Below, in pieces: positions 3,001 through 6,000 of a stretch of DNA of 64,000 nucleotides. Position numbers: made by a program. Numbering within the stretch: position 1 is the stretch's first letter; every line of letters begins with the position of its first letter. The stretch lies in assembly GCF_056746865.1 (NCBI RefSeq), contig NZ_CM163382.1. The stretch is one strand, 5' to 3'.

Positions 3001-6000
3001 GATTGCATCAATATCGAAAGTGATAAGATCCTCTCACTAGCAGGGCATGACAAGTGTAACTGCTGATTTGTTAGCCTGTTTTAAGTTTTTTAAGATCAAT
3101 TATTTCTCATTTTTTGACTTTATTGCTAGCCGTGAAAATGCAAAGCCTATAGGATACAAAAATTACAATTTGTAGGTTTTGTGAGTCATATGAAGGCAAC
3201 CAATATAGACCCTCAACTGCTTGAAAAAGCCACGAGTATCTTTGCTGAGTTGGGCTTACCTATTGAGCAGGCTATTAACGTCTTTTTAGCTAAATCCGTT
3301 CAAGCCAAAGGTTTTCCGTTTTCTGTTGCTCTTGAAAATGAAGTAGAGACACGGGAAGTTGCACAAACGCAACACAATATCAGCAATGCAGAGATAACCG
3401 AAGCTATCCAAGACTTGGTTGAACATGCTCTACCACTGAGTGAAATAGAAAACCTCACGCAGCTAACCTATTGTCGCAACATTTTTGGGTTGTCATTCCC
3501 CGTGCTCAAACTGGCTAAATCATCACGGCCAGAAGACATTCGCAGTGCAGCCAAAGATGCCAAAGAGCGAAACCGCTACTCCACCACTAAAGTGGCCCAG
3601 CGAGATGAAAAAACCTATGTTATTTGCACCCAATGGACCGACAGACATCGTTCTGCATTTTGCCGTTGGCAAGCCATCTTTAGCTAGAACGCAAAATAAT
3701 AACCAAACAATACACTGATTTTTTAACGATTTAACTTCATTTAGGTAGTATCAATGAACTTACAAGACAAAGAACAAAGCGCCAAACTCTCCAGTGCTAT
3801 TTGGCGTATGGCAGATGATTTATGGGGTGATTTCAAACACACCGATTTTGCGCGGATTATCCTGCCATTTTTGCTACTGCGTCGTATTGAATGCGTGTTA
3901 GAACCCACCCGTGAGGAAGTTCGTAAGTTCTATCTGGCCGAAAAACAATCCGGCATAGACCTTGGTTTAGTGTTGCCAGAAATTGCGGGATTCGCCTTTT
4001 ACAACACCAGTGAATATAGCCTAGAAACCTTAGGCGCGTCAGACACCGGCGACAACCTAGAACACTACATCAGCCAGTTCAGCAAAAACGTTCGTACCAT
4101 CTTTGATGAGTTTAAATTTGGTCAAACCATAGAAGATCTGGAAAAAGCCAAGTTGCTGTATCGCATGGTAAACCATTTTGCCAACCTCGACTTGCATCCT
4201 GATGTAGTGTCTGACCGCGTATTATCAGATGCTTATGAAGAGCTGATTCTAAAGTTCGCCAGTTCGGTTAATGAAAAGGCCGGGGAATTTATGACCCCGC
4301 GTGATGCCGTGCGTCTTGCCACCAAACTGGTGCTGGCGGCGGATGAAGATATCTTTAGTGAAAAGGGTGTGATCCGCACCATCTATGACCCAACCTGTGG
4401 CACGGGCGGTTTCCTTTCCGATGCCATTAGCCAAATTGAAGAAATGGGCAGCAGCGCTAAAGTCGTGCCTTTTGGTCAAGAGCTCGACCCCGCGACCCAT
4501 GCCATGGCGCTGACCAATATGATGATCCGCGGTTTTGATGCCAATAACATCAAGCAAGGCAACACCTTATCAGACGATCAGTTACGTGCCGACAAGTTTC
4601 ACTACGGCCTTGCCAACCCGCCATTTGGCATTAAGTGGGAAAAAGCCAAGAAAGAAGTAGAACGTGAGCACAAACAGCTCAAATACGCCGGACGCTTTGG
4701 GCCAGGCCTGCCGAGTATTTCTGATGGTTCAATGCTGTTTTTACTGCACTTGGTATCAAAAATGGAAACGCCGGAAAATGGTGGTGGCCGAGTGGGTATA
4801 GTCCTTTCTGGCTCGCCACTGTTTAATGGCGATGCAGGCTCAGGCCCATCAGAAATCCGCCGTTGGCTGCTAGAACAAGACTTAGTCGAAGCGATTGTTG
4901 CCCTGCCAACCGATATGTTCTTCAACACCGGCATTGGCACCTACATCTGGATTTTGACTAACCATAAAGAGCCAAGACGCAAGAATCAGGTGCAACTGAT
5001 TAACTTGGCAGATATTTGGACTCCCATGCGTAAATCGCAAGGCGATAAGCGCAAGTACCTGAGTGATGAACAGATTGACGATATTGTCCGTGCGTACGAT
5101 GGCTTTGAAGCCAGTGACAACTGTAAGATCTTCCAGACTACTGATTTTGCCTACCGTAAAGTCACCATTCAGCGTCCACTGCGTGCCAAACTAGATATTA
5201 CCGCTGCGGGCATTGCTGCATTTGTGCAGCAAGATACGTTTAAAAAACTCAAACCAGAGCAACAAGCGGCATGGGTACAATACCTCACCGATAACCTTGG
5301 CCTTCAGCCTTATGAATGGGCACGTTTGGCGGTTAAGAAGAATAACAATAAGGGTGACTTTGGTAAGTGCTCAAAAGCACTGGCTACGGCCTTAACTGCG
5401 CACTTTGTAAAAATTGATCCGCAATTTGAGCCTGCACTGGATGAAAAAGGCCAAGTGATCGCCGACCCTAAACTCAAAGACACCGAAAGCATTCCTTTTG
5501 ACCGCGACGTTGAAGATTACTTCGCACAAGAGGTGCTGCCACATGTACCGGATGCCTTTATTGATCACTCAGTGCGTGATGAAAAAGACGGCGAAGTGGG
5601 CATTGTCGGTTATGAAATTAACTTTAACCGCTATTTCTACCAATACGTGCCACCACGCGAGTTGAGTGTGATTGATCGTGAGCTAAAAGCATGTGAAGCG
5701 CGCATTCAGGCTCTGCTGAATGAGGTGGCGTAATGAATGCTGGCAACATAGTAGATGCTTTCGTATCTGACTCGAAATGGAACTCAGTACCAGCTAAACG
5801 TTTATTTACGAGTAGCAAAGAAATCAATCAAGGAATGAAAGAATCTAATCGTCTTGCACTAACAATGAAAGGTGTCATAAACCGCTCGTTAGACGATTTA
5901 CAAGGACTTCAATCTTCTGATTACTCTGTTTATCAGATTTTTGAAAAAGATGACTTAGTTTTTAAGCTCATAGATCTTGAAAATATAAAGACTAGCCGAG

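What the first reader, a model, noticed from the sequence alone, without database searches (positions are those of the whole stretch)
3181..3687. Ribbon-helix-helix (DinJ/RelB-like) ORF directly upstream of hsdM without a partner toxin
The N-terminal 45 aa resemble RHH antitoxin DNA-binding domains, but the protein is 168 aa and is followed directly by hsdM. It could be a transcriptional controller of the R-M operon or a solitary antitoxin-derived regulator. A second overlapping reading frame (3485-3718) raises the possibility of a frameshift.
Basis: partly seen in the sequence, partly recalled or inferred. Interest (0 to 1): 0.35.

Follow-up and report, generated by a model that had tools for sequence, protein, structure and literature searches.

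The report
Defence-operon regulator mislabelled as an antitoxin
The small gene in front of hsdM is probably not a leftover antitoxin but a conserved two-domain DNA-binding protein that heads many different anti-phage gene clusters, and most likely acts as their self-regulating switch.

Summary
The ORF is real, intact and under purifying selection. Residues 1-45 are a RelB/DinJ/ParD-type ribbon-helix-helix (RHH). Residues 61-165 form a confidently folded domain (CTD) with no hit in Pfam, NCBIfam, PHROGs or PADLOC and no PDB fold match. No toxin gene is nearby and there is no frameshift; the +1 ORF 3485-3718 is noise.

Full-length homologues (37-90% identity) occur in several Gammaproteobacteria. 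Each is the first gene ahead of a different defence cassette: type I R-M, an SNF2/DUF4391/methylase/Res system, HEC-03, PDC-S06 plus Septu, PDC-S41, or RhuM alone. Several overlap the start codon of the next gene.

Every locus carries one cluster of TACAA/TTGTA repeats 16-35 nt before the start codon (window 3155-3174).

The CTD also occurs behind Phd/YefM, VapB and HTH domains. It is also found in HNH nucleases and a McrB/LlaJI-like restriction enzyme.

My best reading is an autoregulatory RHH repressor of a mobile defence operon, with an uncharacterised, probably nucleic-acid-binding accessory domain. It resembles RptR, BrxR/CapW and C proteins in logic, not in ancestry. All function is inferred.

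The parts
3155..3174 (+). Operator-like repeat cluster TACAA(3155-3159)-N4-TACAA(3164-3168)-T-TTGTA(3170-3174). The last two repeats form the 11-bp palindrome TACAATTTGTA.
   Evidence: This is the only match to TACAAWTTGTA in the 64 kb window. The composite motif occurs once per locus, always 16-35 nt before the start codon, in 13 loci. There are 39 pentamers against 1.4 expected in the 60 nt upstream of 13 loci. It is the densest 40-nt cluster of the whole locus in 10 of 11 loci.
3150..3155 (+). A -10-like hexamer TAGGAT (TAnnnT) that abuts the first repeat. This assignment is inferred, not shown.
   Evidence: TAnnnT sits at the same position in 11 of 13 loci, read from the alignment. No full sigma-70 consensus promoter was found by scan.
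3114..3119 (+). TTGACT hexamer inside a T-run, kept at a fixed 35-nt distance from the first repeat in the closest relatives. Its role is unknown.
   Evidence: The upstream sequences of window, L009, L020, L021 and L025 share it.
3190..3687 (+). Gene for the RHH-CTD protein, 165 aa plus stop.
3190..3324 (+). Ribbon-helix-helix DNA-binding and dimerisation domain, residues 1-45.
   Evidence: Pfam RelB, TIGR02384 and NF050811 hits, DinJ structures, and model helices 8-20 and 25-40.
3325..3369 (+). Variable, low-confidence linker, residues 46-60.
   Evidence: pLDDT is below 50 for residues 48-60. The region varies in length and sequence in the alignment.
3370..3684 (+). Uncharacterised globular C-terminal domain (CTD), residues 61-165. 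Its order is three helices, strand, helix, beta-hairpin, long helix. Signature: Y[CS]K..F..N[FY]P[VL]LK ... D..GYNRY ... YLLCSQW.E..HR..F..W.
3688..3753 (+). Spacer to hsdM, with no repeat motif and no terminator-like hairpin. A Shine-Dalgarno-like TAGGTAG lies before the hsdM ATG.
   Evidence: The spacer is conserved in Vibrio L020 and L025.
3754..5733 (+). hsdM, type I R-M methyltransferase subunit.
   Evidence: N6_Mtase and HsdM_N hits; RefSeq annotation.
5733..7019 (+). hsdS, specificity subunit.
7019..11568 (+). hsdR, split by an IS3-family (IS1203-like) insertion at 9705-11014. The C-terminal piece resumes at 11015.
   Evidence: blastn against the intact gene of strain S30; annotation.
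11568..12964 (+). Two conserved hypothetical genes (184 aa membrane-like, 280 aa) that travel with the cassette.
13000..15347 (+). rhuM-family gene closing the cassette, split in this window by a second IS1203-like copy at 13364-14673.
   Evidence: The Dickeya locus joins the regulator directly to rhuM.
2206..2973 (-). IS1 copy that truncates the native upstream context. The same junction occurs in all 76 E. coli genomes that carry the module.

Best explanation
The gene encodes a dimeric ribbon-helix-helix DNA-binding protein. I propose that it binds the TACAA/TTGTA repeat cluster at 3155-3174, just upstream of its own start codon. From there it would repress a promoter that drives itself and the co-transcribed downstream defence genes, here hsdM, hsdS, hsdR, two ORFs and rhuM. 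It is a portable regulatory head that has been joined to many different defence cassettes on mobile islands.

The C-terminal domain is a separate, folded module. I think it most likely binds nucleic acid and modulates repression, either as a signal sensor or through higher-order assembly. This would resemble the way the WYL domain serves BrxR/CapW.

Shown: the domain architecture, the conservation, the gene order, the operator-like motif and its co-occurrence with the RHH family. Inferred: DNA binding at that motif, repression, co-transcription, and any role of the CTD.
For: RHH domain:
- Profile hits.

Purifying selection:
- Full-length conservation at 37-90% identity.
- Third-codon-position bias of differences.

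First gene of unrelated defence cassettes:
- Type I R-M in E. coli and Vibrio.
- A second hsdM type (L022).
- SNF2/DUF4391/MTase/Res in Vibrio, Photobacterium, Lonsdalea and Shewanella. The SNF2 protein matches PADLOC 'HKD+Snf2'.
- HEC-03 plus an RNA ligase in Aeromonas.
- PDC-S06 plus Septu.
- PDC-S41.
- A DNA methylase.
- RhuM alone in Dickeya.

Operon linkage:
- Start and stop codons overlap or lie 3-15 nt apart in many loci.
- No terminator-like site in window 2900-3900.

Operator:
- One composite TACAA-N4-TACAA-N-TTGTA per locus, always 16-35 nt before the start codon.
- 39 pentamers against 1.4 expected.
- The top cluster of the whole locus in 10 of 11 loci.
- The motif tracks the RHH domain, not the CTD. 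Phd-CTD genes carry other palindromes.

CTD as a regulatory or nucleic-acid module:
- It is paired with Phd/YefM (17 of 62 proteins), HTH_17, VapB and MerR DNA-binding heads, and with HNH.
- It sits in the N-terminal slot of a McrB-like GTPase next to RE_LlaJI, and in an HNH protein next to a C5 methylase.

Precedent:
- RptR is an unrelated 79-aa repressor. It is the first gene of a type I R-M island and binds repeats over its own -10 box (PMC12255303).
Against: - No experiment of any kind bears on this.
- No consensus sigma-70 promoter could be assigned upstream, so the operator's relation to the promoter is unknown.
- The 13 loci are not independent. They fall into about six lineages, so the enrichment P-value overstates the evidence.
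- The motif is AT-rich and lies where AT-rich promoter and 5'UTR sequence is expected.
- hsdM could have its own promoter inside the regulator gene.
- In L022 and L016 the next gene lies 520 and 268 nt away.
- The CTD's role rests only on domain-fusion logic and sub-threshold fold hits.
Confidence: 0.65

Rival explanations
1. It is a true antitoxin whose 'toxin' is the downstream defence effector. The CTD would bind and neutralise that protein, and the RHH would autoregulate as in classical type II toxin-antitoxin modules.
For: The RHH is homologous to RelB/DinJ/ParD. The CTD is shuffled among RHH, Phd/YefM, VapB and HTH heads. That mix-and-match pattern is typical of antitoxin neutralising domains. 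Many defence systems are toxin-antitoxin-like.
Against: The CTD is highly conserved while the downstream partners are unrelated proteins: HsdM, SNF2 helicase, AAA ATPases, a Schlafen-like helicase and RhuM. No small toxin gene is present in any locus. The CTD is a stably folded 100-aa domain (pLDDT 96.6), not a disordered toxin-wrapping tail. The CTD also sits inside HNH and McrB-like enzymes.
Confidence: 0.1
2. It is a structural or accessory component of the defence machinery rather than a transcription factor. It would be a SeqA-like two-domain DNA binder, with an RHH oligomerisation head and a DNA-reading tail. Such a protein could mark or scan DNA, for example its methylation state, for the neighbouring enzymes.
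Confidence: 0.12
3. It is a decaying orphan antitoxin, a remnant of a toxin-antitoxin pair broken by the IS1 insertion, with no present function.
For: IS1 lies 216 nt upstream. RefSeq names it an antitoxin.
Against: The same full-length gene exists without IS1 in Vibrio, Photobacterium, Shewanella, Aeromonas, Dickeya and Lonsdalea. Differences show strong third-position bias. The promoter-proximal motif is conserved. No relative has a toxin partner.
Confidence: 0.03

Closest known systems
RptR (RMS-proximal transcriptional regulator; EPEC; PMC12255303)
   Same: It is a small first gene of a type I R-M defence island in E. coli. It represses its own promoter by binding short repeats that overlap the -10 box. 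It is conserved with its site across Gammaproteobacteria.
   Different: RptR is a 79-aa single-domain four-helix protein that binds TAGCTA. This protein is a 165-aa RHH plus an extra domain with TACAA/TTGTA repeats. The family profile shows no sequence relation to any solved structure other than DinJ. RptR is tied to type I R-M, whereas this family heads many system types.
BrxR/CapW (wHTH-WYL-WCX defence regulators)
   Same: It has a DNA-binding head plus a separate accessory domain. It is encoded at the head of diverse defence systems and islands, and it is an autorepressor. Like this CTD, the WYL domain is also found fused to nucleases and helicases.
   Different: The folds are unrelated in both domains. 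BrxR is usually divergently transcribed, whereas this gene is co-oriented and often overlaps the next gene. A ligand (ssDNA) is known for CapW, and none is known here.
RelB/DinJ/ParD type II antitoxins
   Same: The N-terminal RHH domain is homologous. Both have a short N-terminal strand starting at residue 2, as in ParD (from my memory of the RK2 ParD sequence). Autoregulation through an operator at the own promoter is likely in both.
   Different: There is no toxin partner. The protein is twice the length, and it has a folded C-terminal domain instead of a disordered toxin-binding tail.
R-M controller (C) proteins such as C.PvuII and C.AhdI
   Same: It is a small regulator encoded at the head of an R-M operon, with repeats at its own promoter. 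It plausibly sets expression after transfer into a new host.
   Different: C proteins are Xre-type HTH proteins of type II systems that bind C-boxes upstream of the C and R genes. This is an RHH protein ahead of hsdM and of non-R-M systems.
NikR-type RHH regulators (RHH plus a C-terminal sensor domain)
   Same: It shows the same principle: an RHH operator-binding head coupled to a globular C-terminal regulatory domain.
   Different: NikR's C-domain is an ACT-like nickel-binding tetramerisation domain. Nothing of that kind was detected here.

Membership tests
RelB/DinJ type II antitoxin | N-terminal RHH domain matching the family profile | tested here: met
   Pfam PF04221 scores 24.5 bits against a cutoff of 22.4. 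TIGR02384 gives E 1.7e-10 but 41 bits, below its cutoff of 45.65. DinJ structures are hit at E about 1e-3.
RelB/DinJ type II antitoxin | Adjacent cognate toxin gene (RelE/YafQ/ParE) in a two-gene operon | tested here: not met
   No such gene is present in the window, in the E. coli annotations or in any homologous locus.
RelB/DinJ type II antitoxin | Short protein (about 80-95 aa) with an extended or disordered C-terminal toxin-binding segment | tested here: not met
   The protein is 165 aa. Residues 61-165 are modelled as a compact domain with pLDDT 96.6.
R-M controller (C) proteins | Xre-type helix-turn-helix fold | tested here: not met
   The N-domain is an RHH. No HTH_3/Xre hit was found.
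R-M controller (C) proteins | Encoded upstream of, and co-transcribed with, the restriction gene of a type II system | tested here: not met
   The gene lies upstream of hsdM of a type I system here, and upstream of non-R-M systems elsewhere.
RptR | 79-aa four-helix homodimer binding TAGCTA repeats | tested here: not met
   The length and fold differ. My reading of 2974-3189 finds no TAGCTA. The repeats here are TACAA/TTGTA.
RptR | First gene of a type I R-M island with repeats at its own promoter | tested here: met
   The gene order is shown, and the repeat cluster 16-35 nt before the start codon. This is functional analogy only.
BrxR/CapW | wHTH, WYL and WCX domains | tested here: not met
   No WYL, WHD_BrxR or BrxR_CTD hit was found. 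A genuine BrxR sits elsewhere in the same Vibrio islands.
SeqA | C-terminal hemimethylated-GATC-binding domain homologous to SeqA-C | tested here: not met
Defence-associated transcriptional regulator (functional class) | Binds an operator at its own or the system's promoter and changes expression of the defence genes | not testable with these tools
   Only the conserved motif and the gene order are available. EMSA and reporter assays are needed.

The most novel reading that the evidence does not exclude
The C-terminal domain is a previously undescribed nucleic-acid-reading domain. In restriction enzymes (HNH, McrB/LlaJI-like) it would serve as the target-recognition module. When attached to RHH, Phd, VapB or HTH heads it would act as an infection sensor, releasing the repressor from its operator when it meets a feature of invading DNA such as ssDNA, DNA ends or a modified base. 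That would make this a WYL-like but structurally new one-component switch that turns on many different defence systems.
Probability: 0.3. Interest if true: 0.75.

Novelty: new variant of a known kind. Interest (0 to 1): 0.55.

Why it matters
How bacteria keep costly or self-damaging defence systems quiet and switch them on is still known for only a handful of regulators: C proteins, BrxR/CapW, CapH/CapP, CapK/CapS and RptR. This family would add an RHH-based regulator that travels with at least eight kinds of defence cassette on mobile islands and plasmids in enterics and vibrios.

It also exposes a widespread domain that no database describes. That domain links small regulators to restriction nucleases.

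There are practical consequences too. The RefSeq label 'RelB/DinJ family antitoxin' is misleading for toxin-antitoxin censuses. The gene plus its TACAA operator could serve as a marker for finding new defence cassettes downstream.

Tried and rejected
- **Frameshift or second frame (3485-3718).** Rejected. There is no family hit, the ORF is not conserved, and the codon-position bias supports the annotated frame.
- **Family assignment of the CTD.** Pfam, NCBIfam, PHROGs, PADLOC and PDB sequences gave nothing. A weak PadR-like match (3l7w, E 0.26) is not significant.
- **NCBIfam 'SepA' and 'MAD1' hits.** These came from full-length CTD proteins and disappear when only the CTD is scanned. They belong to other regions of those proteins.
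- **Promoter assignment.** No sigma-70 consensus was found on the + strand upstream, here or in three other loci. TTGACT at 3114-3119 has no usable -10 element at 16-18 nt.
- **Second operator before hsdM.** None was found.
- **Phage origin.** There is no relative in viral contigs or in phage records.
- **Plasmid near-identity.** None. tblastn found one Photobacterium plasmid copy and a distant IncC plasmid HNH-CTD protein. The Fusobacterium hit (L047) is spurious, since no ORF matches.
- **The genome-contig scan.** It returned only 6 new full-length loci. The rest were N-terminal RHH-only matches in Gram-positives, which I did not use.
- **RhuM as the universal partner.** Rejected. It is absent from the Aeromonas, Parashewanella and other loci.
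- **Literature.** I found no paper on this family.
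Full report
**1. What is in the sequence**

An ORF runs on the + strand from GTG 3181 to the stop at 3685-3687, 168 aa. RefSeq annotates the same gene from ATG 3190 as WP_000648433.1, 165 aa, 'type II toxin-antitoxin system RelB/DinJ family antitoxin'. GTG 3181 is replaced by GTT in the Dickeya and Shewanella relatives. All family members align from M-K-x-x-x-I-D. I therefore take 3190 as the start.

The gene sits 216 nt downstream of an IS1 end at about 2973. It is followed after 66 nt by hsdM (3754-5733), hsdS (5733-7019) and hsdR (from 7019).

The module is found in 76 of 5426 complete E. coli genomes. It is always chromosomal, always has the same IS1 junction, and occurs at more than one chromosomal site.

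**2. The RHH claim holds**

- Pfam RelB scores 24.5 bits against a cutoff of 22.4, covering residues 7-70.
- TIGR02384 RelB_DinJ gives E 1.7e-10 but falls below NCBI's trusted cutoff. NF050811 RelB_ParD gives E 1.2e-7.
- A profile of the family hits three DinJ crystal structures over residues 3-50.
- The AF2 model has the two RHH helices at 8-20 and 25-40.
- From my memory of the RK2 ParD sequence, the strand starts at residue 2 as in ParD.

**3. The frameshift idea does not hold**

- The +1 ORF 3485-3718 has no family hit.
- Its open length varies from 41 to 94 codons in relatives.
- Differences from eight relatives concentrate at third positions of the annotated frame, for example 20/17/70 and 13/11/47.
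- The region it overlaps encodes the most conserved and best modelled part of the protein.

**4. The protein has a second, unknown domain**

After a variable linker (residues 46-60, pLDDT below 50), residues 61-165 form a compact domain. Its elements in order are helices 66-79, 83-89 and 92-99, strand 106-109, helix 114-121, hairpin 130-138/141-146 and helix 151-164. Modelled alone with a 53-sequence alignment, the domain reaches pLDDT 96.6 and pTM 0.88.

It matches nothing in the libraries I could search:

- Pfam.
- NCBIfam.
- PHROGs.
- PADLOC.
- PDB sequences.

An exhaustive HMMER search shows that the domain is mobile. Among 62 other proteins that carry it, the partner domains are:

| Partner domain | Proteins |
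|---|---|
| Phd/YefM-like head | 17 |
| HTH_17 | 3 |
| VapB | 2 |
| HNH | 2 |
| MerR_2 | 1 |
| DUF6946 | 1 |
| DUF1413 | 1 |
| McrB-like AAA_5 GTPase, with two N-terminal copies of the domain | 1 |

The McrB-like protein lies next to an RE_LlaJI gene. One HNH-CTD protein lies next to a C5 DNA methylase. A 237-aa HNH-like-CTD protein is unannotated on the IncC plasmid pKAZ2.

**5. Gene neighbourhoods change the interpretation**

Full-length relatives of 160-175 aa and 37-90% identity occur in Vibrio, Photobacterium, Shewanella, Parashewanella, Aeromonas, Pectobacterium, Dickeya and Lonsdalea. In every locus read, the gene is co-oriented with, and immediately upstream of, a defence cassette. The cassette differs between loci:

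| Downstream cassette | Where |
|---|---|
| Same type I R-M, two ORFs and RhuM, with a different hsdS | Vibrio L020, L025 |
| Another hsdM type | L022 |
| SNF2 (PADLOC 'HKD+Snf2'), DUF4391, N6/N4 methylase, Res helicase-nuclease, with or without an AAA_21/DUF4276 pair or Abi_2 | Vibrio, Photobacterium, Lonsdalea, Shewanella and a Photobacterium plasmid |
| HEC-03 plus an RNA ligase | Aeromonas |
| PDC-S06 followed by Septu | Parashewanella |
| PDC-S41 | L016 |
| A DNA methylase | L018 |
| RhuM alone | Dickeya |

The Dickeya locus is homologous to window 3100-3723 and then to rhuM. The hsdMSR and two-ORF block therefore behaves as cargo between a constant regulator and rhuM.

In several loci the stop codon overlaps or nearly touches the next start. 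In the window there is no terminator-like site between the gene and hsdM. No locus has a RelE/YafQ/ParE-type toxin.

**6. A conserved operator-like element**

Immediately upstream of the start codon, all loci carry TACAA/TTGTA repeats. In the window these are ATACAAAAATTACAATTTGTAGG, with repeats at 3155, 3164 and 3170.

- In 13 loci, the 60 nt upstream hold 39 such pentamers against 1.4 expected from the loci's own composition. The loci fall into about six lineages, so the nominal P-value is inflated.
- The composite TACAA-N4-TACAA-N-TTGTA occurs exactly once per locus, always 16-35 nt before the start.
- TACAAWTTGTA occurs once in the 64-kb window.
- The cluster is the densest in the whole locus in 10 of 11 loci.
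- It is absent from the spacer before hsdM.
- It is absent upstream of Phd-CTD genes, which carry other palindromes over good -10 and -35 boxes. The motif therefore follows the RHH head, not the CTD.
- A TAnnnT hexamer abuts the first repeat in 11 of 13 loci, read. No complete sigma-70 consensus was found, so the promoter itself remains unassigned.

**7. Mechanism proposed**

- RHH dimers bind the palindrome TACAA-T-TTGTA and the tandem TACAA 9 bp upstream. This is inferred from established RHH behaviour in Arc, MetJ, CopG and ParD.
- Binding occludes the -10 element, the transcription start or the 5'UTR, and represses an operon that starts with the regulator and continues into the defence genes.
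- On entry of the island into a naive cell the operon would be expressed before repression sets in. At steady state it would be held low.
- The CTD, by its fusion partners and its weak resemblance to helical DNA-binding domains, most likely binds nucleic acid. It may modulate repression in response to a signal.
- This last step is the least supported.

**8. Comparison with known systems**

- The closest functional analogue is RptR. It is a 79-aa four-helix repressor, the first gene of an EPEC type I R-M/DarTG island, and it binds TAGCTA repeats over its -10 box (PMC12255303). It is unrelated in fold and sequence.
- BrxR/CapW, CapK/CapS (PMC13373217) and C proteins share the logic but not the domains.
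- The RHH is homologous to RelB/DinJ/ParD antitoxins. However, the defining partner toxin and the disordered tail are absent.
- I found no publication on this family.

**9. Verdict**

The 'regulator' reading is supported by comparative evidence and broadened from 'hsd controller' to 'portable defence-operon regulator'. The frameshift and the orphan-antitoxin readings are rejected.

This is a new variant of a known kind of system, with a truly uncharacterised domain. All functional statements are inference and await EMSA, reporter and deletion tests.

Noticed in passing
window 9705-11014 and 13364-14673: Two 1310-bp IS3-family (IS1203-like) copies are inserted relative to E. coli strain S30. 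One is in hsdR and one is in rhuM. In this strain the restriction subunit is probably inactive, while the regulator, hsdM and hsdS stay intact, which would leave a methylation-only system.
   Followed up: partly
window 2206-2973: An IS1 copy abuts the regulator's upstream region. The identical junction is present in all 76 E. coli genomes that carry the module, and at different chromosomal sites (next to tRNA-Leu in S30, near yghD in EC21Z-147). The whole block therefore moves as one unit.
   Followed up: partly
L001 23830-24303 (E. coli S30), equivalent to just downstream of rhuM in the window: A mobI(A/C) gene follows the cassette, and an integrase lies next to tRNA-Leu. The island looks like a genomic island that IncA/C (IncC) plasmids can mobilise. 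A distant HNH-CTD protein is also encoded on the IncC plasmid pKAZ2 (L046 7770-8483), where it is unannotated.
   Followed up: no
L009 (Dickeya) 8910-10282 against window 3100-3723 and 12989 onward: The Dickeya locus joins the regulator directly to rhuM. The breakpoint lies about 36 nt after the regulator's stop codon. This suggests a cargo-insertion site between a constant regulator and rhuM.
   Followed up: partly
L005, L006, L011-L014 and L023 (Vibrio, Photobacterium): The regulator and its SNF2/DUF4391/MTase/Res cassette lie directly after a BrxR-headed MksBEFG/JetD (Wadjet-like) system. Two different regulator types therefore head adjacent systems in one island. In P. damselae plasmid L045 the cassette lies beside Tn3 and gamma-mobile-trio (GmtY/GmtX) genes.
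   Followed up: no
window 11568-12964: Two conserved hypothetical genes, a 184-aa multi-pass membrane-like protein and a 280-aa protein with no Pfam hit, always travel between hsdR and rhuM in E. coli and Vibrio. Their function is unknown.
   Followed up: no
window 24579-28896: This stretch is 84-94% identical, in inverted orientation, to the phosphoethanolamine-transferase and outer-membrane-protein region that lies upstream of the module in strain S30 (L001 9929-13253). It looks like a diverged second copy or a rearranged island segment.
   Followed up: no
window 3114-3119: A TTGACT hexamer within a T-run is kept exactly 35 nt upstream of the first TACAA repeat in window, L009, L020, L021 and L025. 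The sequence between them has diverged. It is too far for a standard -35 element of the TAnnnT hexamer, and its role is unexplained.
   Followed up: partly
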